A stretch of DNA of 64,000 nt from a virus (Duplodnaviria > Caudoviricetes). This document shows, one piece after another, positions 21,134-48,564 of this stretch; position 1 is the stretch's first letter; each line of letters begins with the position of its first letter. Location of the stretch: positions 608 through 64,607 of the IMG/VR virus record IMGVR_UViG_3300034121_001930; one strand, written 5' to 3'. Under the pieces are notes generated by a model, which saw nothing but the letters and a program-made list of their open reading frames with translations, did not search any database and was not told the DNA's origin. The translations under genes and the position numbers were made by a program.

Positions 21134-21172
21134 AAAAAAAGTTGGTGACAAGTTCGGGGCCCAATGTATGGT
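21134..21172 (+). promoter_or_regulatory. Candidate early promoter of the ribozyme-punctuated operon
   Basis: A7 tract, then GTGACA (21145)-16 nt-TATGGT (21167). Confidence 0.45.
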
Positions 21173-21306
21173 CGTTCTCGTTGGCCGCAAGGTCACCCAC
21201 AAAAGCGGATCGGCCGCCGCCCCAGCACGGGGTCCGGCGGCGAGCTCCAAGCGGTGGTCCAGCTCTTTCCCAGTCCCCGATCTCCGGCCCGCAGTGTAAC
21301 GGGCCA

Positions 21307-21395
21307 TGGTGCAATGCCACCACCGCGAACAAGCCTGCAATGGTTGCAAGCCGCGCGGTGCCAGTCCCAAGTCTGGCCCAAGGCAGAGGGCACCA
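21307..21395 (+). ncRNA. Twister ribozyme, type P1; predicted cleavage C21312|A21313
   Basis: P1 TGGTG/CACCA; L1 CAA and GAGGG; P2 TGCC/GGCA; P3 CACCGCG/CGCGGTG; P4 CCAG/CTGG with loop TCCCAAGT; pseudoknots CCC:GGG and AC(21319-20):GT(21371-72), the latter a compensated variant of the usual GC:GC. Confidence 0.85.
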
Positions 21396-21400
21396 AAAAA

Positions 21401-22081
21401 ATGAGAACGGAATACGAATTGAATATCGGTTTGCTGGTCGAAAAGACTGGCAAAAGAATCATCCGCCAAGACGCCGCCGCCGCGCTCGCCGCGACTGGTT
21501 TTGAAGCACACGCTTCAATCCTGCATGAAGGCGAGTGGGAAGGCCAGCCGCAACCCACGCTGGTGGTCGTTGGCTTTGCTCCCGCCAATTGGAGCGCGGA
21601 CGCCTTGGCCGACGAGCTCCAGCAGGACAGCATCGCTGTCCTCGAGGTGGACGCCAACCACGGCCGCTTGGATGGCCCAAACCCGCAAAACTACGGGTTT
21701 GACCACAGCCTGTTCACCACCTTCGAGCAGGCCGTGGACGCCGAATGCGAACGCCGCAAACGCATCGCCTTGGTAGACCTCGAGCACGCCCGCTTGTTCG
21801 AGGCCGCCAAGGCCAAGGACGCCAGTGACAAGGCGTTCCTTGCCGCGGTGACGCCCCCCAAAGAAAAGACCAAGCAGGTGCACACTTTCAAGGGATTCAC
21901 CCTCGAGCTCGAGTACGACGGCGACACATTGTATGCCGACATTTCGCACGGCGACTTCGCGGGCTCGCTAGCGTTCGCGGAGCACAACGGCTACATTGAC
22001 GATGGCGAGGATGGCAAGCGCAAGCGCGTGCCACAGGAGGTCATCGAAAAGTTCTGGGAGCTCGAAGCAAACTTCGCCTGA
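21401..22081 (+). CDS. SAM-lyase-like (T3 SAMase/Svi3-3-like) protein with an acidic C-terminal extension
   Basis: ATG 5 nt after the twister; LNIGL...GEWEGQPQPTLVV...LADELQQDSIAV pattern; the stop is the UGA of hammerhead 1. Confidence 0.55.
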   Translation: MRTEYELNIGLLVEKTGKRIIRQDAAAALAATGFEAHASILHEGEWEGQPQPTLVVVGFAPANWSADALADELQQDSIAVLEVDANHGRLDGPNPQNYGFDHSLFTTFEQAVDAECERRKRIALVDLEHARLFEAAKAKDASDKAFLAAVTPPKEKTKQVHTFKGFTLELEYDGDTLYADISHGDFAGSLAFAEHNGYIDDGEDGKRKRVPQEVIEKFWELEANFA

Positions 22082-22134
22082 TGAGGCCCTTGGCAAGGGC
22101 CGAAACCCTGCCCCCGCAGGGTCGCGGAAGCCAA
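22072..22134 (+). ncRNA. Hammerhead ribozyme 1 (type I); cleavage after C22123
   Basis: CTGATGA (22078); stem II GGCCCT/AGGGCC; GAAA; stem III ACCCTGC/GCAGGGT; GTC; stem I CTTCGC/GCG(G)GAAG. Confidence 0.93.
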
Positions 22135-22152
22135 CCAATCCGCCCAACAAAA

Positions 22153-22317
22153 ATGAACAACATTGACACAACCATTGCCGTGGCCACCAATTGCGTGGCC
22201 GAATTGCTAGCCCTCGCGAGCGGACTCATTGACGACCTTGAATCCTTCGGGTCCGAATGTGGCGACGACTACAGGGCCGAACTTCAGAACATTGTGGACA
22301 GATTCAACGCCGCCTGA
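22153..22317 (+). CDS. Small acidic early protein (54 aa)
   Basis: MNNIDTT...RFNAA; fills the interval between hammerheads 1 and 2. Confidence 0.7.
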   Translation: MNNIDTTIAVATNCVAELLALASGLIDDLESFGSECGDDYRAELQNIVDRFNAA

Positions 22318-22382
22318 CGAGGCCCCGTCGCAAGGGCCGAAACGGCCAGCCCCTTCGGGGCGCTGGTCGTCGCGGAAGCCAA
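22310..22382 (+). ncRNA. Hammerhead ribozyme 2 (type I); cleavage after C22371
   Basis: CTGACGA (22314); stem II GGCCC/GGGCC; GAAA; stem III ACGGCCAGC/GCTGGTCGT capped by a CTTCGG loop; GTC; stem I CCGC/GCGG. Confidence 0.93.
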
Positions 22383-22402
22383 CCAATCCGCTCCAACCAA
22401 CA

Positions 22403-22822
22403 ATGAGCCAAACGCAATTCCAAAATCGTAGACAAGCAACCAATCACCCGTACCGCCCCTGCTCCGCGCTTAAGAGCCGCGGTGGCCTAGTCATCCACTC
22501 CGCCGCCCAGCGGTCCACTTGGTTCCTGCACCCCAGAATTAACGCTGACGCTTACCAAAGCGGCCTGCGCTGGGCCTGTAGCAGAAGCCAACGAGCCGCC
22601 GACGCGTGGATCGAGCAGGTGGCCGTTGGCCACGCGCTCGAGTGGGCAGAGCACGCGGCGCTGTCCGCGCTGTTCCCTAGCTGGCGGTTCCGGTTCACCG
22701 GAGCGACTGGGCAGGGCTCCGGTGTTCATTGGACCGCCAGCCGCAAGAGCGGTGGGCTGGTCGAAAGTATAGCAGGCACAAGCGCCGCGCACATAGCGCG
22801 CCGCCTGCGCCAAGCCGCCTGA
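22403..22822 (+). CDS. Hypothetical early protein (139 aa)
   Basis: MSQTQFQ...LRQAA; starts after the conserved leader and stops in the core of hammerhead 3. Confidence 0.65.
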   Translation: MSQTQFQNRRQATNHPYRPCSALKSRGGLVIHSAAQRSTWFLHPRINADAYQSGLRWACSRSQRAADAWIEQVAVGHALEWAEHAALSALFPSWRFRFTGATGQGSGVHWTASRKSGGLVESIAGTSAAHIARRLRQAA

Positions 22823-22873
22823 TGATGGCCGTGTGGCAACGGCCGAAACCCCGCAAGGGGTCGCGGAAGCCAA
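22815..22873 (+). ncRNA. Hammerhead ribozyme 3 (type I, extra U after A9); cleavage after C22862
   Basis: CTGATGA+T (22819); stem II GGCCGT/ACGGCC; GAAA; stem III ACCCC-GCAA-GGGGT; GTC; stem I CCGC/GCGG. Confidence 0.92.
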
Positions 22874-22893
22874 ACCAATCCGCTCCAACAACA

Positions 22894-23226
22894 ATGAAAA
22901 AATACGACTGGTCAATCCCCGTGCGCGACTTTCTCCGCACGGCCAAAAAACACGGGCTCGAGCCTGTTGCTGTAGACAACGGCGACGGCTGGGTCAGCAC
23001 CTCCGCCATCGCGATTGCGGTGGACGAAATAGCCGCCACCGACGAAAGCCATGTGCGGTTCACCCACACCGACGGCTCGCGCGTCACTGCGTACATCGTC
23101 CTTGGGAACGAACCCGCAGAGCTGGTGGCGGACTACACGATCCACCCCGCGCTTGACGCGGCCACCGATGAGCACTACAACAACTGGGAAGGCAAGCCCT
23201 GCCCGACAACCACCACCGAACAATGA
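22894..23226 (+). CDS. Hypothetical early protein (110 aa)
   Basis: MKKYDWSIP...IVLGNEPAELVADYT; starts after the conserved leader. Confidence 0.7.
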   Translation: MKKYDWSIPVRDFLRTAKKHGLEPVAVDNGDGWVSTSAIAIAVDEIAATDESHVRFTHTDGSRVTAYIVLGNEPAELVADYTIHPALDAATDEHYNNWEGKPCPTTTTEQ

Positions 23227-23330
23227 AACTACCACCAGAGCCCCCGCTGTGGCTAGGCGCATGCCTTGCCGCCCTCTTCGGGGCCGCCTTCGTAGCGGCC
23301 GCAATCCTATTCCACTACCTAGTATCGTGA
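23223..23330 (+). CDS. Small membrane peptide (35 aa)
   Basis: MKLPPEPPLWLGACLAALFGAAFVAAAILFHYLVS; ATGA and GTGA overlaps on both sides. Confidence 0.55.
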   Translation: MKLPPEPPLWLGACLAALFGAAFVAAAILFHYLVS

Positions 23331-23482
23331 AGCCTGCACCCTTCGCCTGTAGCGAGTGTGGTAGCCGCTGGTGGCCTGACCCAGACAGCAGTTGTCCGGC
23401 CTGCCAGCCAAGCCACACGCACGATCCAGACTACGACGAGCTACCGCCCGACCCGTACGATGAAATCGAACCCGAACCCTGA
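23327..23482 (+). CDS. Small Zn-ribbon protein with an acidic tail (51 aa)
   Basis: CSECG...CPAC; the GTG overlaps the previous stop. Confidence 0.55.
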   Translation: MKPAPFACSECGSRWWPDPDSSCPACQPSHTHDPDYDELPPDPYDEIEPEP

Positions 23483-23493
23483 ATCCTGAAAAT

Positions 23494-23712
23494 ATGAAAG
23501 CATACCTGCTAAAAGACTACTGCGGGCAAGGCCCGCGAATCGTTGTTCACCCGCGCGGCTTGCCGCCCAGCTGGACAGAATCCGGTCTCACGGCCGAGCA
23601 AGAAGAGCAAGCGCAACACAGCGCGTGCAAGCTGGGCCCAGAGTTCCGCAACTATGTGTTGCACTTCGACCCAGAGACACTGGAGCACCTTGACAGCTTC
23701 AAGGTGCGCTGA
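23494..23712 (+). CDS. Hypothetical early protein (72 aa)
   Basis: ORF ends 7 nt before the core of hammerhead 4. Confidence 0.65.
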   Translation: MKAYLLKDYCGQGPRIVVHPRGLPPSWTESGLTAEQEEQAQHSACKLGPEFRNYVLHFDPETLEHLDSFKVR

Positions 23713-23715
23713 ACC

Positions 23716-23784
23716 CCGCCTGATGATGGCCGTGTGGCAACGGCCGAAACCAATCCGCTCCGGCGGTGCGGTCGCGGAAGCCAA
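23716..23784 (+). ncRNA. Hammerhead ribozyme 4 (type I, extra U); cleavage after C23773
   Basis: CTGATGA+T (23720); stem II GGCCGT/ACGGCC; GAAA; stem III ACC/GGT plus CCGC/GCGG; GTC; identical to hammerhead 5. Confidence 0.88.
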
Positions 23785-23801
23785 CCAATCCGCCCAGAAA
23801 T

Positions 23802-24173
23802 ATGAATACATTAGTCACACTAAATATTGGCCTGCTTGTCGATAAGACTGGCAGGGAAATCAGCCGCACCGAAGCCGCACAGGCGCTAATCGAGCACGGC
23901 GTCGAGCCCATCATCAGCCTCCTTCACGAGACGCAGTGGGGTGATAAACCCCAGCCGACCCTCGTGGTCTTCGCGGAGGTCCCCCGCAACTGGACGGCCG
24001 ACGCGCTGGCCGACACGCTCGAGCAGGACGCCATAGCGGTCCTCGAGCATGGTCCCAATGGCCAAGTTAGGGGTCACTTTGATGGCCGCAACCCCAAAGG
24101 ATGGGGCTTCGACTTAAACGAGTTCGTAAGCTTGGACCAAGCACGCGCCGCGTGCAAAGCATCAGCCGCCTGA
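23802..24173 (+). CDS. SAM-lyase-like protein, paralogue of the 21401..22081 N-terminal domain (123 aa)
   Basis: LNIGLLVDKTG...WGDKPQPTLVV...NWTADALADTLEQDAIAVLE aligns with the first gene. Confidence 0.55.
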   Translation: MNTLVTLNIGLLVDKTGREISRTEAAQALIEHGVEPIISLLHETQWGDKPQPTLVVFAEVPRNWTADALADTLEQDAIAVLEHGPNGQVRGHFDGRNPKGWGFDLNEFVSLDQARAACKASAA

Positions 24174-24234
24174 TGATGGCCGTGTGGCAACGGCCGAAAC
24201 CAATCCGCTCCGGCGGTGCGGTCGCGGAAGCCAA
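24166..24234 (+). ncRNA. Hammerhead ribozyme 5 (type I, extra U); cleavage after C24223
   Basis: CTGATGA at 24170; exact copy of hammerhead 4, 450 nt downstream. Confidence 0.88.
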
Positions 24235-24254
24235 CCAATCCGCACCAACCAACA

Positions 24255-24548
24255 ATGAAAGCAGAAACCTATTATGTCCTGTCAATATCCACTCGCGCGA
24301 ACACCTTTGGCTACTTTGGGGTCATCCTATTGTCGGCCAGCGGTCACGGCGTTGAGGCCCTGTACAGCCCCTACGCTGGCGGGCTTCCGAAAGACCAGCT
24401 CGAGAACGGACTCCCCAAGCGCGGCACCCGCGTGCAGGACCTGTTCCAGCACGGCTTCGTAAGCGCACGGGACCAAGGCCACACGACTCCGGCCAAGGCC
24501 GCGCGCGTTATACAGGCCACCCTGCAACGCGAAAAACAAACCGCCTGA
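24255..24548 (+). CDS. Hypothetical early protein (97 aa)
   Basis: MKAETYYVLS...EKQTA; stops in the core of hammerhead 6. Confidence 0.7.
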   Translation: MKAETYYVLSISTRANTFGYFGVILLSASGHGVEALYSPYAGGLPKDQLENGLPKRGTRVQDLFQHGFVSARDQGHTTPAKAARVIQATLQREKQTA

Positions 24549-24600
24549 TGATGGTCCCTTGGCTGGGACCGAAACGCCGCCTAGGCGTCGCGGAAGCCAA
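24541..24600 (+). ncRNA. Hammerhead ribozyme 6 (type I, extra U); cleavage after C24589
   Basis: CTGATGA+T (24545); stem II GGTCCC/GGGACC (compensatory changes relative to other copies); GAAA; stem III ACGCC/GGCGT; GTC; loop II TTGGCT complementary to downstream AGCCAA. Confidence 0.92.
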
Positions 24601-24619
24601 CCAATCCGCACCAACAACA

Positions 24620-24823
24620 ATGACAAACATCCCGATAAAACTATGCGTTGGAGAATCCTATAGGATTCTACCGCCGCCGCCCAAAGAACGCGTTGAGGGG
24701 GTCTTCTATCCGGTCCGCTTCGGGCGACTGGTCGAGATCTACAGCAACGGCGAGTGCACCCTGCAATGGTACAACCAAGGCGGTTTCTACAAGAGCCACA
24801 TCACCCGCTTAACCCACTACTAA
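24620..24823 (+). CDS. Hypothetical early protein (67 aa)
   Basis: MTNIPIKL...; starts after the conserved leader. Confidence 0.65.
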   Translation: MTNIPIKLCVGESYRILPPPPKERVEGVFYPVRFGRLVEIYSNGECTLQWYNQGGFYKSHITRLTHY

Positions 24824-24826
24824 ACA

Positions 24827-25126
24827 ATGAAAACAGAAACATCACATGTGCTGTCCCTCGAGGACGCTTTCACGCCAACCTATGACCTGTTCCTGCAGGC
24901 CCCGTACAGCGGCAACCACAGGGACTTCGCGCACCAGCGCATACGCAATGGTGACGAGGTCGTCGAGCGCACCTTCTGGGGCCGCGATACCGCCGAGCAC
25001 TGGGTCAATGTTCGCGAAACACGCACCAGCATCCGCGGCCTTGTCCAGACGCTCGAGCAGGCCACCGGAGTCCGCATCATACTTGTGGACGACTTGCCCG
25101 AGGGCATAAGCTACCCAACCGCCTGA
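24827..25126 (+). CDS. Hypothetical early protein (99 aa)
   Basis: Stops in the core of hammerhead 7. Confidence 0.7.
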   Translation: MKTETSHVLSLEDAFTPTYDLFLQAPYSGNHRDFAHQRIRNGDEVVERTFWGRDTAEHWVNVRETRTSIRGLVQTLEQATGVRIILVDDLPEGISYPTA

Positions 25127-25191
25127 TGAGGCCCCGTCGCAAGGGCCGAAACGGCCAGCCCCTTCGGGGCGCTGGTCGTCGCGGAAGCCAA
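25119..25191 (+). ncRNA. Hammerhead ribozyme 7 (type I); cleavage after C25180
   Basis: CTGATGA (25123); otherwise the same as hammerhead 2. Confidence 0.93.
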
Positions 25192-25210
25192 CCAATCCGC
25201 ACCAACAACA

Positions 25211-25456
25211 ATGACAACAACAAAAAGCACTGAAAGAATCATAAGCGAGCTCGTGGGCCGCACTATCCGGTACATCGCGCTCGACTCACAGCAAACCAAT
25301 AACGGCGTACGCGTATTTAAAATCGACCAAGTCAACCGAGTTGCGGTTAGCAAAAAAGGCGTGCGCTACGCGGTGGTACGCGCGTGGGATATTGATGACC
25401 GCGGCGAGCAAAAGTTCCGCTCGCTACACTTGGCCGGAATCGACCTCGTAGTCTAA
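25211..25456 (+). CDS. Small WYL/SH3-fold-like protein
   Basis: VRAWDIDDRGEQKFRSLHLAGI resembles the WYL C-terminal FRxFxLxRI motif. Confidence 0.45.
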   Translation: MTTTKSTERIISELVGRTIRYIALDSQQTNNGVRVFKIDQVNRVAVSKKGVRYAVVRAWDIDDRGEQKFRSLHLAGIDLVV

Positions 25457-25477
25457 TCACAAACCAATAGAAAAACA

Positions 25478-26125
25478 ATGAACACAGAAACAGAAACAGA
25501 AACACCAGTGGCCTATTCACGAGGCCGATTCTACAAGGTCAAGGGCCTTCTTGTGAACGCCCCAATCACGGCGGTCTTGCACCGCTCGGTAACGGGTAAA
25601 GGCTGGGCAGTTACGAGCCCCTATTGCGGGCAGGTAATCGCCAAGGGCCCGACCAAGGCCGCGGCCGAGCAAGCCCTGCTCGAGGTGCTCCAGCAGTTCG
25701 GAATCGAACGGGTCCAAGCGGGCATCCAAAGCGCGCCAGCGGCTCCCGATCCGGCAACGCTGGAATCCCCGCCAGCCCCGCAACGACCCGCTCGCGTAGA
25801 CCGCGACCAGATCGGTCAAATAGTCAAAGCCATTGCCGAACGCGCACAGCTTACCGACTCCGAGATCGAGGCCGTGTGGCGCTCGCTGGCCTCTAACGGG
25901 AAGCACGCGGGCCGCCTGCTATCCAAGCCGCCAGTCTTCAGCGTGGACCCGCTGGCCAACGCCGCGTGGAACGGACTACAGCCCAACCCGTGGAAGGTTC
26001 AACCCACCGCAATCCTGTTCGCCAACGGCAACGCTAAAGATTTGCTGAATAAACTTGCCAAGCATGCTTGGCCAGCCTTTCTTGATCGCGACGCCGCGGC
26101 GCTCAAAGCACTAAATGTTTGGTAA
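25478..26125 (+). CDS. Hypothetical early protein (215 aa)
   Basis: ORF preceded by an A/C-rich leader. Confidence 0.7.
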   Translation: MNTETETETPVAYSRGRFYKVKGLLVNAPITAVLHRSVTGKGWAVTSPYCGQVIAKGPTKAAAEQALLEVLQQFGIERVQAGIQSAPAAPDPATLESPPAPQRPARVDRDQIGQIVKAIAERAQLTDSEIEAVWRSLASNGKHAGRLLSKPPVFSVDPLANAAWNGLQPNPWKVQPTAILFANGNAKDLLNKLAKHAWPAFLDRDAAALKALNVW

Positions 26126-26127
26126 TT

Positions 26128-26700
26128 ATGAAAGCAAAAATACAAGCAACCACAGCAATCCTTGTCGGCAAATCTAATGTGAATGGCTGGTGCCCCGTTA
26201 CTGGGGAGCCAGCCAACTCAATCTACCAGTGCTTCCCCACTGGTAGATTGGTGCGCGCGTCCAGCGATGCAAACGCGCTCGAGGCGCACAACAACGAACT
26301 GCCGAACGACACACGAATCCTGTCTCCAGAATCCAGAGTCTCGAAACCAGTCGAGCCCGCGGTCTGGGACAACAAACAAAAAATAGAAACAAAAAAAGTG
26401 AATAACAACATAACACACCTAGTCGCGGTTTCGTGCCGCACGCTACCCGCAACAGACAACTACCCTGCCCGAGTCAAGGTCACCTTACCGCGGTTCCAGA
26501 AAAGTATAACGCTTCCTTGGAACTACGGCGCGTCGCCGGAAGTCTCGGACCAAGTGGCGTTCTGGTTGCAACAGAATAACCTTAAGCACTGCGCGTTCCT
26601 TGACCTGCACGATTTTCATGTGTTGGCCGTGGAATGGGAGCTGGTCCCGCAGCTGCTTGAGTTGTTCAAAAACAAAACACCTAACCGCTACAAAAAATGA
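26128..26700 (+). CDS. Hypothetical protein (possibly two in-frame units)
   Basis: ATG 2 nt after the previous stop; possible internal GTG start near 26398. Confidence 0.55.
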   Translation: MKAKIQATTAILVGKSNVNGWCPVTGEPANSIYQCFPTGRLVRASSDANALEAHNNELPNDTRILSPESRVSKPVEPAVWDNKQKIETKKVNNNITHLVAVSCRTLPATDNYPARVKVTLPRFQKSITLPWNYGASPEVSDQVAFWLQQNNLKHCAFLDLHDFHVLAVEWELVPQLLELFKNKTPNRYKK

Positions 26701-26916
26701 CGCACACAGAACGCAGACTACAGGCGCAGGAAGCCGCTTTTATTTACCTAATAAAAAAGGGGCGCAAGACCTTAAGCAGACCCACTCCTGCGGTGGTTGG
26801 AAGAGACCTATTAATATTCAAAAAGCCATGATTTTAAGCCTAACCATTGTGCTAGTAGTTTTACTAGTGGTTTTGTTTTGCAACGGCCCAAACGACCCCA
26901 ACCCCCCAGCATCATT

Positions 26917-27153
26917 GTGAAAACTATTTACGCGTCTACGTTCAACCCTACCGCTCGAATCGTACATAGCCCCGACGGGGCCGCCGAGATTAGGACCACC
27001 CGCAACTGGTTGTCGTACACCGAAACATTGAGCATGCCAATGTGTGAAAAGTACGGAATAGATTACCACACAATTAGCGAAACCGATGCGCTAAATTTAG
27101 CGCTGGAACTTGCGTATTTGAGCGGTAAAATTAACACCAGCGAAACCCCATGA
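26917..27153 (+). CDS. Hypothetical protein
   Basis: GTGA and ATGA overlaps with its neighbours. Confidence 0.5.
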   Translation: MKTIYASTFNPTARIVHSPDGAAEIRTTRNWLSYTETLSMPMCEKYGIDYHTISETDALNLALELAYLSGKINTSETP

Positions 27154-27347
27154 TAGGCAACACACTAACCACCACCATAACTGGGGACCTCCAGCAGGTC
27201 CCCAGCATTGACCACCTCGTAGATCTTCTGCACATTCAAGACCCCGAATTTATTTTTGTGGACAACCTTGTCGAGGAAGACTACTCTGTACCAACTCCCC
27301 CCACTAACCCCAAAAACGACTACAACTACTATTATGCAAAATATTAA
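27150..27347 (+). CDS. Small acidic hypothetical protein
   Basis: ATGA overlap with the previous gene. Confidence 0.45.
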   Translation: MIGNTLTTTITGDLQQVPSIDHLVDLLHIQDPEFIFVDNLVEEDYSVPTPPTNPKNDYNYYYAKY

Positions 27348-27579
27348 TACCATCGCAAGACTGAACGCGCAAGAGCGTGCCGACCACGAGAATAGCCGCA
27401 ACGGAACCTACTGTGTTCTCCGTCATGGGGGAATCCTCCTCCGCAGCGGAGTCCGCAGTAAGACCTTGGACAACCCCGAAGAAGCCGCTGGTTTCCTCGA
27501 ACAAGTCCGCGGCAAGAATAGCGGTATTATCCGCCAAGTGGTGCAGAGTTTCTTTGCGCCAAATCTCCAGCTAGCCTAA
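27334..27579 (+). CDS. Hypothetical protein (81 aa)
   Basis: MQNINTIARL... Confidence 0.55.
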   Translation: MQNINTIARLNAQERADHENSRNGTYCVLRHGGILLRSGVRSKTLDNPEEAAGFLEQVRGKNSGIIRQVVQSFFAPNLQLA

Positions 27580-27666
27580 ACAAATTATGCCCTTGTTGTA
27601 CCTAACAGTAGCGGCTTCCCTTTTCGGGGTGGCCGCTACAGTTTACGACATTATTATGTCACTGCC

Positions 27667-27930
27667 ATGATTCGTGATACCTGTATCGTTAGTCATTTAT
27701 TCTTTGATCGAACCAACCACGACCGCGTTTGCGTAGAGTTGCACAAGGACTCAGGATTCCTTTATGTGTTCTACAAAACAAAGTTTGGAACAATGCGTAG
27801 CGCAAGCGCCGCGGTTGACCCAGAGGTTTCATCAAAGATCCACCAGCTGTTCGGGTCACTGTATCCTGAGATGCCCGAGCTAGCTACAGAAATGAACGAA
27901 TGGCTACAAGCAACGCTTGAAAGCCGTTAA
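27667..27930 (+). CDS. Hypothetical protein, last gene of the early region
   Basis: 87-aa ORF ending just before the terminator. Confidence 0.6.
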   Translation: MIRDTCIVSHLFFDRTNHDRVCVELHKDSGFLYVFYKTKFGTMRSASAAVDPEVSSKIHQLFGSLYPEMPELATEMNEWLQATLESR

Positions 27931-27933
27931 ACC

Positions 27934-27972
27934 AAAAGCCCCGAGCATTATGTTGCTCGGGGCTTTTTTGTT
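27934..27972. terminator. Bidirectional rho-independent terminator
   Basis: AAAAGCCCCGAGCA-loop-TGCTCGGGGCTTTTTT between convergent genes. Confidence 0.9.
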
Positions 27973-30900
27973 TTATTTTGTGTTTAATTTCAAGTACTGC
28001 GGCCTAGCATACACGGCCTCGTTAAGGTACTTCACACGCGCGGCACCGTTCTCTTCTCCGCCAATGCGCAAGTAGTCCTTGTACGCGTCTTCGCTAGGTT
28101 TAAACCTTTCGACCCGACCATAACGCACGGCGTCCTTAAAGCGGCGCTTGCTAATGCCCACATCGTAGGCTTGGCTTTCCATTTCAGCGTAGCTCATTCC
28201 GAGCTTCTCGAATCCGGCCGCGTACTTGTTGAGCCTTTCGTTAATCGCAATCAATGATGTTTCATAGCGATCATAAACTCCGTCCACGCGTTCCTTGTCT
28301 AGCTGCTCGTAGCTCTTAAGCTCGCCAAGAGTTTCTCTGGCCGCGTCCATTTGTTGTTTAAGGTCACCGAACGCGCGTCTTGCCAGCTGTTCTGTTTTAT
28401 TGGTGTGAACGCGGAACGGTTTGAACTCGTTGACCACAAGGTCAGCGGCCTTCTCGAAGCGTGCGTCCTTGTCGTAAACCCCGCCGTTGGTATAAGCCTC
28501 GTAAGCTTTCCAAAACTGGAACGGGGTGCGAAGCTTGTACGCGTTAGTGGCCACATGCTTCAGGGTCTTGCCGACTTTGGTTCCCCATGAATCGTCCTCC
28601 AACCACAGCGCACCGCCGCGGTCGTCTCTATTCATACCGGCCTGCGCGAAAGCCTCCACTGCAATCTGCGGGCTCAGGAAACTCTTTGCCAAGGACGAAG
28701 CCATGACCCCCGGTATTTTCTCCCAGCGGCCATTGACTGCATGATGAATGCTGCGGCCGACGGCGTCTGTGATTGGACTAAATCCGTTAATGTAGGTGAG
28801 ATCCCATGTTGTTACTGATTTGTCCGCTGGGTCTGATGTAATGAACAAGTTGGAATCGCGTGCCCAAGGCGGCTGAGCAGCCCGAACACCTTCTTCTTCC
28901 TCGTCTTCGACCTCAAACATTTCTTTCAGCAGGGCCGGAGCACCATACCCAAGGACAGAAAGGGTAGTGCCGAGTCCAATTAGTCTGTTACGGCCCCTCG
29001 CCACGAGCACTGGGTTTCCGCTCTTCACTTCGTCTACTCCGAGCTGGATCGTCGCGATTGGAAGGCGGAACATTTCTGCGGTGAAGCGGAAGAAGCTGTT
29101 GAACAGCATGCCAAGCCCGCTGCGTTGGAACTCTTTAGCAATCGGAGCCACACGCTCGCGGCCCTGTGTGGTAAGCCTGACAACACGCGCCGCCTCCTGC
29201 TTAATTTGCTGTGGTGTTAGCGGAACGCTCCTGTACTTGTTAGCTTTGGTCTGCACATCAATTTCGTGCGCCCAGTAAGCGGCCTTGTAGAGCATATCAA
29301 TTTGATCGTTAAGGGTTGCAAGACCATCGACTGTAACCTTCGCGCCCTTCCACGCCTTGGCAAGGAAGTTGCCCGGGGTACCGACCTCTTTGAGCATAGA
29401 CTCAATCTGATTTGTAATCAGTTCAGGGTCGTCAATTGTTCCGCGGATAAAGTCGCGCATAGTTTGTGTAACCATGCTGCCTTCGGAGATTCCCAGCATA
29501 ACCATATCGGCTCCGAGTCCGTCCATGTCGCGGCCGTACACTTGTTTAATACCTTTAAGCGCTGTAACAATGTTGCTAGGCGTAGGAACAAACCCGTTAG
29601 ACGATGCAAAGATTGGAATACTCACAAGGTTGCGGACAAAGAAGCCAGCGCTTCCCAATGTAAGAAACGCCATACTGGCACCAATTGTTCTGCTAGCACC
29701 AAGCTGTACAAAGTCCCAAACCTTTTTAGCATCGCTACCTTCTGGGGCAGGTGCCGGAGCGAACATAGTTTGGAACGCAGAAACAACTTCGGGCTGCGCG
29801 TAGTACTGGGACAGTGGATCGCCGCCGTTGGTGTCTGTGGTGTTTACTAGCGGAGCGTACCCGCGGTACTTAACTGGATCGTTCTCCACATCTTCGGCGG
29901 TTACAAGCCAGTTGTTGTCGAGACCAAGCTTGGTGTACTGCGTGAGCAGTCTCTGGGTACCAAGAAACTGAGCGAGGTTTCCGTAAGTGCGCAGCGCATT
30001 TTCAATTGGGTTCTGTACCTCGCCAAGCAGCACTCGAAGTTCCGGCGGCACTTCACCTTTCTGCATGAATCTTGTAAGATCAGTGCGGCTGGTTGCTCTT
30101 CCAAATACTTTTGGCGTCGCGCTGTGCTTGTCAATAAACTTGTAGAGCTCGCGCGTTCCAACATCTTTGGAGGCCGCTTCAGCTCGCACAAGCGACATGA
30201 CTTCTGAGTCTGTGTACGGCTCGTACGCAACGTCCTTGCGCCACTGCTCGTATGTGTTATCAATCCACTTTTTCTCAAGGAAGTTACGGGCAAGCGCACG
30301 CTGGTGCGCGAACTCGCTGTCCTCCAGTACGCGTTGCGCGTAGCCTTCGTCCTGATGGATGCGGTAGGTGCGGGTAAGGTAGACTCCAAGATTTTGGTCA
30401 ATAATTGCACGAAGCGGATTACCGGAGCCCAGCTCGTCTGAAAGTTCAGAGCTAAGTTTGTCCACGGCCACGCGGAAATTGGCAATGGCAATTGCAGTTT
30501 TCGGGGAGTTCAACTCCAGCCTAAGCTGCGCTTGCTGCTGCGCCTTGCGCACCGGTGCGAGGTTTTGTGCACGCGCGTCTTGGATATCCTTACTGTACTG
30601 GGCCTCGGCCGCGGCAATTGCTGCGTCCCTTTGCTGAATTTCTGGGCTATTTTTTCTATCAGCGCGGGCCTGCTCAACTTCTGCAGTATACTTTTGTTTG
30701 CTGCGATGAGTCCTATAGTTCACACGCGCCGTATTAACGGCGTCCATGTAAGCTTTGTTTGCCGGGGCCCTGTCAAATACATCGTTAGCCTTGTCAATGC
30801 GTGCGCGCTTGGCCGTTTCTGCAGCGTCGCGTTGCGCCGCGCCTACGGTTGGCTCTGTGCTACCGAGCGCCAAGTTAACGTCGTCCAAGTCTGCGTTTGG

Positions 30901-33900
30901 TTCCGACTTAAGTGCGGCTTGGAACGCTTGCGTAAGATCCTTAAGCCGCGCCTTGGCAAGACGCAGCCCACGCTCTTGGTACTTGGCGGCCTCGAACAAG
31001 CGAGGGTCCATGTTTCCACTGGCGCGGAACAAGCGGCTAACTGGTCCACCCGCGTCCCATTCACCGGTGGCGTTGTTAATAAACAGGTCGTCCAAGCTAA
31101 CCGCGTACGCGCTTTCAACGTCCGGGCTCGTAATAGCATACAGGGCCTTGCTGTAGCGCGGGCTCTTGTCTGTCATATAACCAGTGGCGCGCTCAGCAAA
31201 CTCAGCGTTGCGTACGAATACTCGCGGGCCCACCATAATAGCTTCGGACCCACCGACCACGGCGAGCTTACTGCGCACGTCAACGAAGTCGCTGCTGCGC
31301 ACGGGGTTAAAGCCGACCTCGGTCCAGACTTCTGGATCGTTAATGTCTGCGGGCATCTCGGTAATTGTGGAGATGTTACCCTTTACAGTCGCAAGAGGGA
31401 ACTTGCCGGTACCTGCTGCAATATCACGTGCCTCACCTTTTCCGCTAATAGCACGAACCACCATAGTTGGGTTCGTAATCCGAGCAACACTAGTGTACGA
31501 CAACGGCGCTGCTACACGCGTCGCAGTTTCTGCGGCGGGTTGATGAAGTGTAATCGCATATACCGATTCACCAGCAGCTGTAGATCTGTTGTATGTGGGT
31601 ATATCAATACGGGCTTCAACAACAGTTCTATCGGCTACAGCCACGCCAACTTTATCAACTTTGCTAGCGTCTATGTACTGTTTAATTTTATCAATTGCTG
31701 GAGCGTCCGCAGCCCCTTTGACTTCCCACGGATCAAAGAAGCCAACAAGATCGGCGTATTCATCCACGGTAATTTTACCTTCGATCATTCGCACAGCAGC
31801 TACAGCAAGCTCGGGTGCGTTACGCCGAGCCGTCGCCTTGCCCGCGGCTTTCTCTTCTGCTGGCGTTACCGGTGTAAGGTTTGCTAAGCTCTTGGCTATG
31901 CTGGCTGGTGCGGCCAGCGGCAAGCTAGTGTCACCATCCTTTACCTTGGTTACCTTTTGCTTATTGAACAATACACCAGCTTGGTAAGACGTGCTAACAT
32001 AACCCTTGAATCCTGCATCCTTAACCGCTTTCTCGAGCAGTGTAAGTGCAGCGCGGTTGTCGAACCTAGCGTAGCCAGCCTTCTGCAGGGCGTCTGCGTC
32101 CGGGTACAGGTCTAGTGGATCACGGTCCAAGTCGTACAAGGCATCGCCGTTGACCAGCATGCTGTAGCGGTTGACCCCGACCTGAGTCTCGCGGCGGTAC
32201 TTGCCGTATCCGAAATAGGTTCGCGGCATGTAGATGTCTCCGTACTCGCGGCGGCGCTCGAGTTCTTTACCAGCGCCACCATTACCGTGTTCGCTTGGGT
32301 CTGTCTCCTTAAGCTCGGTGGCCTTGGACCAATGGGTTAGCTGGACCATGCGTCCACGGAAAGCCTTGGGCGCGGTGTCGAGCCCGGCCTTGCTAAGCGC
32401 AATGTTCGCGTTAGTGAAGCCATCCTTAAGCGATGTCGGGCTCCACGCGACCAGCTCGAGCACGTCTCCATTGTTGTCCACAATAATGATTCCGTCGTAG
32501 CCGAGCTTCTGACCCATGGTCTGGAACTGCTTACCTATGTAGCCTTTCTCTTCTAGGATCTTCTCGGTCTTTGCTTCGGCCTTGTCTGGGTCCATGCCAA
32601 GAGCTTGGAATATATTGGCTGGATACGCTTGGCTATACTCAAACACCAATGGATTCTGTAGGCTAACATCGAATACCGAAACGCTACCACCGGTAATGCC
32701 TGCTCCGAGGCTACCCTCGCGCGCATACTTCTTCGCTGAGTCAACGCTTGGCGTGACGTAGTAACCAGATCCCAGAGCGCCTTCCTTGCTCGGACGCAGC
32801 GCACCCACACCCTGCTTGTATGTGCCGCCGTGGAATGCTGTTGTGGAGTACGGCTGGCCAGTTGCGACTATGGCTTTGCTGCGCGCAATACTAAGATTAA
32901 CACCCAAGCGGGTCGCAATTCTTGTATCTTCAATTTCAATATCAGTTACCGTAGGCAAGTTCATTGCGTACGTAATGATTTCCGAATCTGTATACAAGCC
33001 CTTGGTTTGTTTCTTAATGCGGTCAAGAGCTTGAGTACGCAGATCAAACTCAGTTCTAAGCTTGTTTCTGAAGGCCGCGTCAAGATCGTACCAAGCCGCA
33101 TCGGTTTCAACCGGTGAGGTAACAATATCCAAGATGTCATTACCGGCCATATCAGTTTCTCTTTGAAGTTTCTTAGAAACTTCTGCGACTGTAGCAAGAT
33201 CTTGCAAAGCTTTCGGCATATCCGAAATTCGCATATATCTTCCTTGAATCACTGGGATCTCTGACGGATGAACTCGCGCGCCCAAGAACTCTTTGGCTGC
33301 TTTGGACCATGTGTTGCGTCGTTCGCTGTTCGCGAACATAGCCTCGTCATCTTGGGTAATTGCACGGCTGCGGGCAATGCCGACCCCGGCCGGGGCCGGA
33401 CCTTCGGTAACGTCGGCCCAGCTTGGGAAACCAAGACCAAGCTCTTCATTGTTGCTATTGGCCACGGCGGTTGCCAAGTCCTTGCCGTTGGTCGCCATTG
33501 CAAACACTGCGGTCTGCGCTTGCTCCAACGTAATCTCGTTGTTCTGGTACCGGGCCCATACGGCGCGCACACCGTTAACGTTTTCAGACTTACTCTTCCA
33601 TCTGGCCGTGAACAACATACGCACGGCTTCCCAAGTAATGCTTTGCACTTGGCGCGGGAGCATTCCGTACTCAGCGGCGACCGCTCTGTACGCTTCTGCG
33701 AATGCTGGGTAAAGACCACCAACGCCGGTAAGGCTGTCGGTGGCGGTGTTTGCGGTTCCAAAGTTCTGGCCGACCTCGCGGCTGTTGCCGCTGAACGCTT
33801 GCCAGAACAGCGCCGCAATGGCGTGGGTGTCCATGGTCACGTGGCCGTCTGCGTTCTGCGGGTCCACAATGTTATTGTAAAAGCTACGAACCTTGTGCTG

Positions 33901-46965: not shown

Positions 46966-47943
46966 ATGCAAACACAATACAACGACCCCAAAGGGCAAGC
47001 GGGCTCCCTTAAAGCTCCATTGGGATTAGTCCCGCCGTACGCAATGGAGCAGACCTCATGGGTCCACAAGTTGGGCGCAGACAAGTATGGTCCGTGGAAC
47101 TGGCGCGAGACTGGCGTTTGTGCCAGCACTTATGTCAACGCGATCCTGCGCCACTTGAACGCATGGCGTGACGGTGAATCACTGGACCCTGAATCCGGTA
47201 TCACGCATCTGGCACACATTGCCTGTAGCGCGAACATCCTCATGGATGCAGAGGTATGTGGCAAGCTACAGGATGACAGGAACAAGCGACCCACTAACGA
47301 CGAAACTGAGGAAGGTTCTCCGAAAGTAGGTGGGTTTGAGCTTGATGAGGAGTTAATGAACGACATCCTTAAATGGATTCGTGGCGAAGACGAAGAGCCA
47401 CCAACTAAACATGTCGGCGGCGGTGAGTCGTACGAAGACTTTTGGGGTCCGCTCGCCGAAGACACCGTACCAGAATACCGCGTCCTTAAAGAAGGAGAGT
47501 TCATTCAAGAAGGCGATGAGTTCTTCGATGAACAAGTTGGCGAATGGAAAGAGACGGGCATATTGAAGGATATGGGGATAGAAGTGGCATCCATTGATCT
47601 GTACCGCCGTAAGGTCGCAGATTGCGACCTTAAAGAAGAGCCGTCGATAAAGTATCGCGTCGAGACTGCAGCGTATCGCAAACTAGAAGAAGGCGAAAAA
47701 CTACAGGACGGTGATGAAGTGTATGTCGGTGAAGACCACTGGTTGCCTGTGTACGTTTCAGATTGGGTGACTCCTTCGATTGTCCGCAACGGAACCTACC
47801 GCCGCAAGATCACAGATTGTGATCTTAAACCAGAATCCCCAATCGACGACGAGTGCAAATGCGGTCTCCGTAAAATTTATCATTGGCTTTACGGGTACAT
47901 CTGCGAAGACTGCGAAATCAAATATCCAGACCCACAACCATGA
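46966..47943 (+). CDS. dATP/dGTP diphosphohydrolase-domain protein (DUF5664-like) with a repeated acidic C-terminal module
   Basis: K.PLGLVP...GADKYGPWNWR...Y.NAILRHL.AW.DGE.LDPESG..HLAH motif. Confidence 0.8.
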   Translation: MQTQYNDPKGQAGSLKAPLGLVPPYAMEQTSWVHKLGADKYGPWNWRETGVCASTYVNAILRHLNAWRDGESLDPESGITHLAHIACSANILMDAEVCGKLQDDRNKRPTNDETEEGSPKVGGFELDEELMNDILKWIRGEDEEPPTKHVGGGESYEDFWGPLAEDTVPEYRVLKEGEFIQEGDEFFDEQVGEWKETGILKDMGIEVASIDLYRRKVADCDLKEEPSIKYRVETAAYRKLEEGEKLQDGDEVYVGEDHWLPVYVSDWVTPSIVRNGTYRRKITDCDLKPESPIDDECKCGLRKIYHWLYGYICEDCEIKYPDPQP

Positions 47944-48406: not shown

Positions 48407-48483
48407 CGCAGGGCATGCAGTAGCGGTGCTGCGCCAGTCTCATAAGCTGGAAAGTGTGGGTTCGACTCCCACCCCTGCAACCA
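48407..48483 (+). tRNA. tRNA-Met (CAU) with C1:A72 mismatch; encoded CCA
   Basis: Acceptor CGCAGGG/CCCTGCA, anticodon arm CCAGT-CTCATAA-GCTGG, T arm GTGGG-TTCGACT-CCCAC, ACCA end. Confidence 0.85.
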
Positions 48484-48489
48484 ATCTCC

Positions 48490-48564
48490 GCCCCTTTAGT
48501 ATAACGGTTATTACACGAAATTTGTAATTTTGATATGATGGTTCGACTCCGTCAAGGGGCTCCA
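48490..48564 (+). tRNA. tRNA-Thr (UGU); encoded CCA
   Basis: Acceptor GCCCCTT/AAGGGGC, anticodon loop TTTGTAA, GGTTCGACTCC T arm, TCCA end. Confidence 0.85.

What the first reader, a model, noticed from the sequence alone, without database searches (positions are those of the whole stretch)
21307..25210. Early operon punctuated by eight self-cleaving ribozymes: an RNA-encoded mRNA-processing system
Seen in sequence: one twister (21307-21395) and seven type-I hammerheads with cores at 22078, 22314, 22819, 23720, 24170, 24545 and 25123. All are on the sense strand and all sit at gene junctions. Each has CUGANGA, GAAA and a GUC site. Stems II and III differ between copies yet stay paired (GGCCCT/AGGGCC, GGCCGT/ACGGCC, GGTCCC/GGGACC; five different stem III sequences), which points to selection on structure. 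Predicted products are 811, 248, 491, 911, 450, 366 and 591 nt, mostly monocistronic. Established: these ribozymes leave 5'-OH and 2',3'-cyclic phosphate ends, and T7 splits its early transcript using host RNase III. Inference: this phage achieves the same subdivision without host enzymes, giving individually stabilised early mRNAs. I know of no described phage operon systematically punctuated this way, but could not search the literature.
Basis: partly seen in the sequence, partly recalled or inferred. Interest (0 to 1): 0.97.

Follow-up and report, generated by a model that had tools for sequence, protein, structure and literature searches.

The report
Ribozyme-punctuated phage operon, confirmed
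One strand of this uncultured phage carries a twister and seven hammerhead self-cutting RNAs at its gene junctions, which most likely chop one long message into separately protected short messages; this layout has been known in phages since 2011.

Summary
One twister-P1-like element (21308-21394) and seven type I hammerheads (cores exactly where stated) lie on the sense strand of a roughly 6.8-kb operon. The genome holds none elsewhere, and shuffles give none.

Rfam finds only the twister, below its gathering score, and misses 6 of 7 hammerheads. A covariance model built from hammerheads of other families finds exactly the seven (51-73 bits; next hit 14.5 bits).

Four viral contigs and several metagenome contigs carry the same architecture. 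Stems II and III covary across them.

Mechanism (inferred): the RNA cuts itself during transcription. Each cut leaves a standard 28-31 nt leader whose first bases refold into a 5' hairpin. A three-way compensatory change supports both pairings.

The upstream stop codon lies inside the catalytic core in 6 of 7 units.

Perreault et al. 2011 described and tested clustered hammerheads flanking single phage genes, and this scan has many similar notes on other DNA.

"Early" timing is plausible, not shown. No cleavage data exist.

The parts
21145..21172 (+). sigma-70-like promoter candidate (GTGACA, 16 nt, TATGGT)
   Evidence: Consensus scan, 9 of 12 matches. Both hexamers keep their position in L003 and L002 while the spacer sequence varies. 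Function not shown.
21180..21307 (+). conserved structured 5' leader that twister cleavage would release as a separate RNA of about 130 nt; function unknown
   Evidence: Conserved in L003, L002, L001 (partial), L047 and L068. The consensus fold has 8 pairs changed on both sides, and an invariant single-stranded stretch at 21258-21280. No Rfam family matches. The start coordinate is inferred from the promoter.
21308..21394 (+). twister ribozyme, type P1, long P3 insert; predicted cut between C21312 and A21313
   Evidence: RF03160, 45 bits, E=8e-8. The same element is in L001, L003, L002 and L138. 9 pairs in P2, P3 and P4 change on both sides in L002.
21401..22081 (+). gene A (226 aa); the N-terminal domain is a paralogue of gene A'; the stop codon lies in the HH1 core
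   Evidence: Translation; phrog_11722, function unknown; 52% identity to A' in alignment A4.
22074..22152 (+). hammerhead HH1 (cut after 22123) plus 29-nt leader
   Evidence: Custom model R1 72.6 bits, E=2.5e-15. Rfam Hammerhead_3 only 17 bits.
22153..22317 (+). gene B (54 aa), stop codon in the HH2 core
   Evidence: no family hit.
22310..22402 (+). hammerhead HH2 (cut after 22371; long bulged stem III) plus 31-nt leader
   Evidence: R1 62.6 bits.
22403..22822 (+). gene C (139 aa), stop codon in the HH3 core
   Evidence: no family hit.
22815..22893 (+). hammerhead HH3 (extra U after A9; cut after 22862) plus 31-nt leader
   Evidence: R1 60.1 bits.
22894..23712 (+). four-gene block without ribozymes (110, 35, 51 and 72 aa) with overlapping or nearly abutting start and stop codons
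   Evidence: ATGA and GTGA overlaps and one 11-nt gap.
23716..23801 (+). hammerhead HH4 (extra U; cut after 23773) plus 28-nt leader; the only unit whose core is not the upstream stop codon
   Evidence: R1 54.0 bits.
23802..24173 (+). gene A' (123 aa), predicted SAM-lyase-like fold, stop codon in the HH5 core
   Evidence: Model pLDDT 85.5. Foldseek top hit is phage SAM lyase 6zm9, E=1.7e-3. VIA-align Z 9.1, rmsd 2.9 A over 97 residues, against Z 7.0 or less for the rest.
24166..24254 (+). hammerhead HH5 (core, stems and first 20 leader bases identical to HH4; cut after 24223) plus 31-nt leader
   Evidence: R1 51.5 bits.
24255..24548 (+). gene of 97 aa, stop codon in the HH6 core
   Evidence: no family hit.
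24541..24619 (+). hammerhead HH6 (extra U; cut after 24589) plus 30-nt leader
   Evidence: R1 57.9 bits.
24620..25126 (+). two genes (67 and 99 aa); the second stops in the HH7 core
25119..25210 (+). hammerhead HH7 (differs from HH2 only at N7; cut after 25180) plus 30-nt leader
   Evidence: R1 61.4 bits.
25211..27930 (+). distal part of the operon, several genes, no ribozyme
   Evidence: ORFs. No hammerhead by descriptor or by model R1. 90% identical to L003.
27934..27967 (.). 14-bp hairpin flanked by A and T runs; terminator-like on the + strand (the A/T flanks suggest it could act on both) between this operon and the converging 4371-aa gene

Best explanation
This is a phage operon whose transcript cuts itself. 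Host RNA polymerase probably starts near 21180 at a sigma-70-like promoter. A twister ribozyme cuts off a structured leader of about 130 nt. Seven type I hammerheads, one at each of seven gene junctions, then cut the RNA 42-57 nt after the stop codon of the upstream gene. That stop codon is usually the UGA of the catalytic core. Each upstream RNA therefore keeps its stop codon and ends in the two stable hammerhead hairpins with a 2',3'-cyclic phosphate. Each downstream RNA begins with a 5'-OH and a nearly invariant 20-nt sequence. Its first four bases (GCGG) form the 4-bp stem I before the cut. The next bases (AAGCCAA) can pair with loop II as the tertiary pseudoknot. After the cut, GCGGA pairs with UCCGC 10-11 nt downstream to form a 5'-terminal hairpin. 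That hairpin releases the product, blocks re-ligation and probably shields the new end. An A/C-rich spacer of 8-11 nt without a Shine-Dalgarno sequence leads to the AUG. The outcome is eight RNAs with standard ends (811, 248, 491, 911, 450, 366, 591 and about 2790 nt), which resembles a natural version of the engineered RiboJ insulator. Shown here: the motifs, their strand and position, their covariation and their recurrence in relatives. Inferred: cleavage itself, the order of folding, end protection, effects on translation, and early timing.
For: Presence and specificity: 7 of 7 units carry the full core and sit in the sense orientation at junctions, with 0 elsewhere in the genome and 0 in 100 shuffles. 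A covariance model trained on 22 hammerheads from other families finds exactly these 7 at 51.5-72.6 bits, and the next hit scores 14.5 bits.

Selection on structure: among 33 copies in the window and four related viral contigs, stem II has 10 distinct sequences with 53 of 60 cells paired, against 30-63% when the register is shifted. Stem III has 18 distinct sequences with 93 of 106 cells paired, against 25-39% shifted. There are G-C/A-U and C-G/G-C swaps.

Twister: 9 pairs change on both sides in L002.

Recurrence: arrays of 6-7 hammerheads behind a twister occur in L001, L003, L002+L004, L005, L047 and L068.

Folding: the hammerhead alone folds to the three-way junction as minimum free energy in 5 of 7 units. 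With the leader added, GCGG moves to the leader hairpin in all 7.

Both pairings are selected: at one orthologous junction CCGC/GCGG/UCCGC became CCAC/GUGG/UCCAC (L047, L066, L068 against L086). A 5'-terminal hairpin of at least 4 bp occurs in 76 of 91 non-redundant copies, against 25% of shuffled leaders.

Gene layout: the core UGA closes an ORF of at least 40 codons in 35 of 47 distinct family copies. The cut-to-AUG distance is 28-32 nt in 44 of 47. An ORF of at least 30 codons follows in 46 of 47.

Precedent: clustered prophage hammerheads cleave in vitro and in E. coli (PMC3088659). RiboJ, a hammerhead plus hairpin, raises protein 2-10 fold in E. coli (PMC6206723).
Against: No cleavage has been observed for any of these RNAs, and no RNA run was listed (reported under Tried and rejected). 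Rfam's curated models do not reach gathering score for any of the eight, and miss six hammerheads entirely. Stem I is only 4 bp and invariant, so it has no covariation of its own apart from a single event seen as one sequence in three loci. The thermodynamic folds favour the leader hairpin over stem I by about 1-6 kcal/mol (about 2-3 in five of the seven units), so part of the RNA could be trapped uncut. Two units (HH2, HH7) do not give the hammerhead as the minimum-energy fold even without the leader. The loop II pseudoknot is imperfect: 11 of 33 copies lack UGGC. Four of 7 units carry an extra U in the core; that this is tolerated rests on a paper whose title alone I saw. My custom model and the relatives were retrieved with patterns taken from this window, so those tests are not fully independent. 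The related copies share ancestry, so the counts overstate independent events.
Confidence: 0.75

Rival explanations
1. The cut is conditional, not constitutive. The mutually exclusive pairings (stem I against the leader hairpin) act as a switch. A ribosome at the upstream stop codon, which lies inside the core, would block cleavage. A ribosome starting on the downstream AUG would melt the hairpin and permit cleavage. Processing would then be tied to translation or to conditions in the cell.
For: Both pairings are under selection (three-way change). The hairpin form is the predicted minimum once the leader is present. The stop codon lies in the core in 35 of 47 family copies. Perreault et al. 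discuss regulated cleavage as a possibility for phage hammerheads.
Against: A trap that forms after cleavage explains the same covariation more simply. No ligand-binding or sensor element is visible. The same leader sits on every unit, so unit-specific control is unlikely.
Confidence: 0.1
2. The repeated unit of about 100 nt (hammerhead plus leader) matters mainly as a recombination joint. It lets gene cassettes be gained, lost and swapped between related phages. Cleavage is secondary or came along with the cassettes.
For: Between the window and L003, the colinear blocks end inside hammerhead units. Three cassette-level differences (W-only 23793-24541; L003-only segments of about 310 and 155 nt) are bounded on both sides by units. 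Slot content differs among five genomes, and two of them have adjacent hammerheads with no ORF between. Orthologous junctions carry different stem II/III versions. HH4 and HH5 are identical, and HH2 and HH7 differ only at N7.
Against: Recombination alone does not explain an intact catalytic core in every copy, or compensatory changes that keep the stems paired. The strict four-gamete test on stem II x stem III types found 0 quartets among 34 combinations. This reading is compatible with the main one and does not replace it.
Confidence: 0.07
3. The motifs are structural only. They would be hairpin pairs serving as targets for host RNases, as pause or termination sites, or as decayed ribozymes that no longer cut.
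For: Rfam models fail. Stem I is short, and 4 of 7 cores have an inserted U.
Against: Hairpins need no CUGANGA, GAAA or GUC, yet all are intact in the 7 window units and in the 33 copies. One of those 33 (L004-4442) has a mismatched stem II. The same inserted U is common in 44 hammerheads of other families. No T-run follows the stems.
Confidence: 0.05
4. The units become circular RNAs. Every fragment ends in a hammerhead whose stem I strand matches the 5' end of the same fragment, so self-ligation or a host RtcB-type ligase could close each unit into a circle.
For: All units share the same stem I, and the ends are 5'-OH and 2',3'-cyclic phosphate, the chemistry that such ligation needs (established knowledge). 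Eukaryotic retrozymes use this route (title and abstract of PMC4918200 seen in a search listing).
Against: The selected leader hairpin sequesters the very bases needed for re-ligation. Perreault et al. looked for circular or spliced products from prophage clusters and found none.
Confidence: 0.03

Closest known systems
Clustered hammerhead ribozymes flanking single genes or short gene blocks in prophages (Perreault et al. 2011, PMC3088659)
   Same: Several sense-strand hammerheads lie between small phage genes. The proposed role is processing of a long transcript into single-gene mRNAs. The cargo relates to anti-restriction (ardA there; a SAM-lyase-like fold here). A pseudoknot joins loop II to a tail beside stem I.
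   Different: There are seven hammerheads plus a twister in 3.9 kb, against the triple arrangements tested there. All are type I with a 4-bp stem I. An identical 20-nt leader follows every cut. The word 'stop codon' does not occur in that paper.
Twister ribozyme, type P1 (Rfam RF03160; Roth et al. 2014, known to me through the review PMC6765202)
   Same: P1, P2 and P4 helices, the conserved P4 loop and the GAGGG strand are all present. It lies next to hammerheads and phage genes, the association that led to the discovery of twister.
   Different: It scores 45 bits against a gathering score of 67.2. It has C-A instead of U-A at the cut, a 27-nt insert in P3, and A-C/G-U where the model has G-C/G-C in the second pseudoknot (my reading; the pseudoknot assignment is recalled).
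RiboJ synthetic insulator (sTRSV hammerhead plus 23-nt hairpin; PMC6206723)
   Same: A hammerhead removes the upstream RNA and leaves an identical hairpin-bearing 5' end before each coding region.
   Different: RiboJ is engineered, is used once behind a promoter, and its hairpin is a separate element. Here the hairpin re-uses the stem I strand, and the unit is repeated seven times inside an operon.
RNase III processing of the phage T7 early transcript (established knowledge, recalled)
   Same: A polycistronic early phage RNA is split at intergenic structures into stable, separately translated mRNAs.
   Different: T7 uses a host protein enzyme and leaves 5'-phosphate and 3'-OH ends. Here the RNA would cut itself and leave 5'-OH and cyclic phosphate ends.
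Other ribozyme-punctuated phage operons noted in this scan (176 notes in at least 149 genomes)
   Same: Same layout, with the same closest literature cited by the follow-ups (for example an array of 11 twisters, e1-5891544).
   Different: This one is hammerhead-dominated and has the standard leader. Those notes are unchecked AI notes on other DNA.

Membership tests
Hammerhead ribozyme | Conserved core: C3 U4 G5 A6 N7 G8 A9, G12 A13 A14, A15.1-U16.1, H17 | tested here: met
   7 of 7 units. N7 is U or C and H17 is C. 4 of 7 have one extra U after A9.
Hammerhead ribozyme | Three helices around the core, supported by covariation | tested here: met
   Stems II and III are 88% paired, against 25-63% when shifted, with compensatory changes. 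Stem I is an invariant 4 bp, with one compensatory CCAC/GUGG variant.
Hammerhead ribozyme | Type I topology (stem I open, stems II and III capped) | tested here: met
   Order of the elements in all 7 units.
Hammerhead ribozyme | Tertiary contact between the stem I and stem II regions | tested here: inconclusive
   Loop II UGGC can pair with GCCA in the leader in 22 of 33 copies. Some relatives (L001, L005, L047) have a 7-nt loop fully complementary to the leader's AAGCCAA. One distant copy shows GAC/GUC instead of GGC/GCC. 11 of 33 copies lack the match.
Hammerhead ribozyme | Score at or above the gathering threshold of an Rfam hammerhead model | tested here: not met
   No hit at gathering score. 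One hit of 17 bits at E=8. None in a 501-nt stretch holding two units. A custom model from other families scores 51.5-72.6 bits.
Hammerhead ribozyme | Site-specific self-cleavage giving 2',3'-cyclic phosphate and 5'-OH ends | not testable with these tools
   Needs in vitro transcription or end-specific RNA sequencing.
Twister ribozyme, type P1 (RF03160) | Score at or above the gathering threshold | tested here: not met
   45 bits against 67.2; E=8e-8 on 5 kb and 1e-6 on 64 kb.
Twister ribozyme, type P1 (RF03160) | P1, P2 and P4 helices with conserved loop nucleotides, supported by covariation | tested here: met
   Full-length alignment to the model. 9 pairs change on both sides between the window and L002.
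Twister ribozyme, type P1 (RF03160) | Two pseudoknots | tested here: inconclusive
   The CCC and GGG strands are intact, and the second pair of strands reads AC and GU, which stay complementary. Which strands pair is recalled, not computed.
Twister ribozyme, type P1 (RF03160) | Self-cleavage | not testable with these tools
   No experiment was possible.
Phage SAM lyase (cargo genes A and A') | Fold similarity to solved SAM lyases | tested here: inconclusive
   Top Foldseek hit is 6zm9, E=1.7e-3, TM 0.50. VIA-align Z 9.1 against 7.0 for the next entry. 7-9% identity. No Pfam, PHROG-function or PDB sequence match. Catalytic residues not examined.

The most novel reading that the evidence does not exclude
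The invariant 20-nt sequence after each cut could be a three-purpose RNA part. Before the cut it supplies stem I and the pseudoknot partner. After the cut it snaps into a 5' hairpin that makes cleavage irreversible and protects the new end. At the DNA level, the unit of about 100 nt would serve as the joint at which related phages exchange gene cassettes. Together with a twister-released structured leader of about 130 nt that may make the polymerase resistant to termination, this would be a self-contained, RNA-encoded system for expressing and shuffling anti-defence genes, in effect a natural counterpart of engineered ribozyme insulators.
Probability: 0.25. Interest if true: 0.6.

Novelty: new member of a known kind. 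Interest (0 to 1): 0.45.

Why it matters
The role of the many hammerhead and twister ribozymes in phages and bacteria is still called an open question (PMC6155905; PMC6765202). This locus is a compact test case: eight ribozymes in 3.9 kb, with relatives that supply natural mutants. They include a three-way compensatory change that points to a cleave-then-trap design. The locus could be used to test whether ribozyme processing sets mRNA stability and translation gene by gene in a host that makes little use of Shine-Dalgarno sequences. It also shows that the curated hammerhead models miss a widespread phage subtype (4-bp stem I, AAGCC tail, optional extra U), so counts of phage ribozymes based on Rfam are too low. 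It does not reveal a new kind of system.

Tried and rejected
N4-like phage: I first took the 4371-aa ORF for an N4-type virion RNA polymerase. Pfam shows polyvalent-protein domains instead (DUF7178, DUF3293, ART-PolyVal), so I dropped this.

RNA evidence: the look-up of sequencing runs (kind rna) listed no RNA holder. None was listed, which says nothing about expression.

Host: the scan of bacterial and archaeal genomes gave 31 loci. 29 have no paired hammerhead and look like chance, and 2 are lone hammerheads with other leaders in MAGs. No host emerged. blastn against GenBank phages found nothing.

Leader RNA: no Rfam family matches. A second viral scan found only the known relatives. Its single-stranded motif resembles boxA as I recall it, but I could not retrieve the consensus from two papers, so this stays a lead.

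Cargo: no hits in Pfam or PADLOC, only a PHROG of unknown function, no PDB sequence match and no usable Atlas hit. hhalign between the cargo alignment and the DUF3293 segment of the giant protein gave a probability of 2.7%, so no relation was shown.

Module shuffling inside the ribozyme: the strict four-gamete test gave 0 quartets.

Pseudoknot: my first idea, UUGGC with GCCAA, holds for only part of the copies.

Papers: Roth 2014 and Weinberg 2015 are not held. De la Pena and Flores 2001 was seen only as a title in reference lists. Supplements were closed; those of Perreault 2011 may list this subtype.

Full report
WHAT THE WINDOW IS. The window is nearly all of a single 64,607-bp contig. It carries phage genes: tail-fibre-like proteins, a family A DNA polymerase, a helicase, and a 4371-aa protein with polyvalent-protein domains. 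It is not N4-like, as I first guessed. Genes run leftward up to 21005. A rightward block runs from about 21164 to 27930. It ends at a strong hairpin flanked by A and T runs, terminator-like on the + strand, at 27934-27967, which faces the converging giant gene.

THE OBSERVATION.
- A pattern made of the hammerhead core, GAAA and the cut site matches seven times, all on the + strand, at the stated coordinates. 100 shuffles gave none.
- My first, strict descriptor found three. After I allowed one extra nucleotide after A9, it found exactly seven in the whole genome, none on the minus strand and none in 100 dinucleotide shuffles.
- All core positions are intact.
- The twister aligns end to end with Rfam's type P1 model at 45 bits (E=8e-8 on 5 kb, 1e-6 on the window), below the gathering score of 67.2.

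THE COVARIANCE-MODEL TEST.
- Rfam at gathering thresholds reports only two tRNAs.
- In permissive mode it gives one 17-bit Hammerhead_3 hit on HH1 and nothing for the other six, even on a 501-nt stretch holding two units.
- I then collected hammerheads of other families from metagenomes and aligned the 22 that lack the extra U. They have different leaders, mostly with Shine-Dalgarno sequences.
- I wrote the three stems onto that alignment. It shows 93.9% of cells paired, against 28-42% when slid, and 0 of 500 shuffles reach the covariation score. These rows were pre-selected for pairing, which inflates the percentage.
- I built model R1 from it. With filters off, R1 finds exactly the seven units in the window at 51.5-72.6 bits (E from 2.5e-15 to 2.8e-10). 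The next hit on either strand scores 14.5 bits.
- The training rows were retrieved with a pattern taken from this window, so the test is not fully independent. It still shows that the failure lies in Rfam's coverage of this subtype.

RELATIVES AND COVARIATION.
- The 23-nt sequence that spans the cut occurs several times in four viral contigs. There are 25 properly paired hammerheads in those loci, and 33 copies with the window's by a looser pattern.
- Three of the contigs show the twister in front of the array.
- Two metagenome contigs carry arrays of seven. Their twister is a variant that Rfam misses at E<=0.1.
- I counted outward from the core, so no alignment was needed. Stem II has 10 distinct sequences with 53 of 60 cells paired (30-63% when shifted). 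Stem III has 18 distinct sequences with 93 of 106 cells paired (25-39% when shifted). Both show swaps on both sides.
- Stem I is an invariant CCGC/GCGG.
- For the twister, 9 pairs in P2, P3, the P3 extension and P4 change on both sides between the window and L002.

THE JUNCTION DESIGN.
- Six of seven upstream genes in the window end at the UGA of the core. All six proteins end in Ala, because the stem I strand is coding.
- Across 47 distinct family copies, that frame is open for at least 40 codons in 35. One third would be expected from frame alone, and the other two frames give 23 and 12. The cut therefore never removes a stop codon.
- After the cut comes a nearly invariant 20-nt sequence and an A/C-rich spacer. 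The AUG follows at 28-32 nt in 44 of 47 copies, and an ORF of at least 30 codons follows in 46 of 47.
- The lack of a Shine-Dalgarno sequence is not special to these units. Only 8 of 62 genes in the window have an SD-like 4-mer upstream.
- Junctions without a ribozyme have overlapping or nearly abutting start and stop codons.

TWO EXCLUSIVE PAIRINGS.
- RNAfold gives the three-way junction for 5 of 7 units when the hammerhead is folded alone. Once the leader is added, GCGG leaves stem I in all seven and pairs with UCCGC downstream. The free 3' product always starts with that 5-bp hairpin.
- At one orthologous junction, three loci read CCAC, GUGG and UCCAC where the sister locus reads CCGC, GCGG and UCCGC. 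This one set of changes keeps both pairings. It appears as one sequence in three loci, so it counts as one event.
- A hairpin of at least 4 bp starting at the first nucleotide of the product occurs in 76 of 91 non-redundant copies, including families with quite different leaders. It occurs in 25% of shuffled leaders.
- I read this as cleave-then-trap. The short stem I lets the product go, and the hairpin keeps it from re-ligating and caps the new 5' end. The alternative, that the hairpin holds cleavage back until some signal arrives, is not excluded.
- The stretch between the two hairpin arms can pair with loop II. In some relatives a 7-nt loop is fully complementary to it, and one distant copy has GAC/GUC in place of GGC/GCC. 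However, 11 of 33 copies lack the match. Such pseudoknots are known in about 40% of hammerheads (PMC3088659).

THE HEAD OF THE OPERON.
- Upstream of the twister, a sigma-70-like promoter keeps its place in three lineages while the spacer varies.
- Between promoter and twister lies a conserved leader of about 130 nt. Its helices show 8 pairs changed on both sides, and it has an invariant single-stranded stretch. Only two lineages exist, and no Rfam family matches.
- Twister cleavage would release this leader as a separate RNA.
- Its single-stranded motif resembles boxA as I recall it. I could not retrieve the consensus, so this is a lead only.

CARGO AND TIMING.
- The genes between the ribozymes have no Pfam or PADLOC hit.
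- Genes A and A' share a domain. The model of A' (pLDDT 85.5) is closest to phage SAM lyase: Foldseek E=1.7e-3, and VIA-align Z 9.1 against 7.0 for the next entry. That gives moderate support for an anti-restriction role, which would fit early expression and parallels the ardA gene inside a tested hammerhead trio.
- Timing itself is not shown.

CASSETTES.
- Gene order is broadly shared among five genomes, but slots differ, and two genomes have adjacent hammerheads with no ORF between them.
- Between the window and L003, the colinear blocks end inside ribozyme units. Three cassette-level differences are bounded by units on both sides. One further break lies inside gene A.
- The strict four-gamete test for shuffling of stem II against stem III was negative.

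WHAT IS KNOWN.
- Perreault et al. 2011 (passages read) describe multiple hammerheads flanking single genes or short blocks in prophages. They propose processing into single-gene mRNAs, and show cleavage of three triple arrangements in vitro and of one in E. coli.
- The 2019 review and the 2017 review call the function still open.
- RiboJ is the engineered analogue.
- This scan holds 176 notes on similar layouts in at least 149 genomes, including an array of 11 twisters. The scan has therefore found this kind before on other DNA.
- My literature searches turned up no description of a stop codon placed in the hammerhead core, or of the stem I/leader-hairpin exchange in phage arrays. The supplements and two key papers were not available to me.

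VERDICT. The locus is a dense, clean new member of a known kind, with a few details worth testing at the bench.

Noticed in passing
window 21180-21307: A conserved, structured 5' leader of about 130 nt lies between the promoter and the twister. No Rfam family matches it. Its invariant single-stranded stretch resembles boxA as I recall it. Twister cleavage would release the leader as a separate RNA.
   Followed up: partly
L021, L024 and about 40 metagenome loci (for example L050, L053, L099, L104, L109): A wider class of phage-type type I hammerheads shares stem I CCGC/GCGG, an AAGCC tail, GGC in loop II and often an extra U after A9. There are 44 non-redundant examples outside this family. Many of their leaders carry Shine-Dalgarno sequences, and many of their 3' products also start with a hairpin. 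The window's units of this class are missed by the Rfam hammerhead models.
   Followed up: partly
window 46966-47943: A 325-aa protein with the N-terminal domain of dATP/dGTP diphosphohydrolase (PF18909, E=4e-29). Such enzymes occur in phages that replace adenine with 2-aminoadenine (recalled). No PurZ-like gene was looked for.
   Followed up: no
window 27973-41088 (minus strand): A 4371-aa polyvalent protein (DUF7178, DUF3293, weak ART-PolyVal) converges on the ribozyme operon. Its DUF3293 segment shows no detectable relation to cargo genes A and A' (hhalign probability 2.7%).
   Followed up: partly
whole window: Only 8 of 62 ORFs of at least 70 aa have an SD-like 4-mer at -18 to -4, and the upstream regions are A-rich. 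The host probably relies little on Shine-Dalgarno pairing. The host is unknown.
   Followed up: partly
window 48416-48480 and 48490-48561: Two adjacent tRNA genes on the + strand. The first is short and scores weakly (34.8 bits).
   Followed up: no
L001 and L005 (operon strand): Two hammerhead units are adjacent with no ORF of at least 35 codons between them, as if a cassette had been lost between two joints.
   Followed up: no
L047 about 3365-3450; L068: A twister variant with U-A at the cut and an A-to-C change in the P4 loop. Rfam does not report it at E<=0.1.
   Followed up: partly
window 23720-23773 and 24170-24223; 22314-22371 and 25123-25180: HH4 and HH5 are identical, and HH2 and HH7 differ only at N7. 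Genes A and A' are paralogues. These point to recent duplication or gene conversion within the array.
   Followed up: partly
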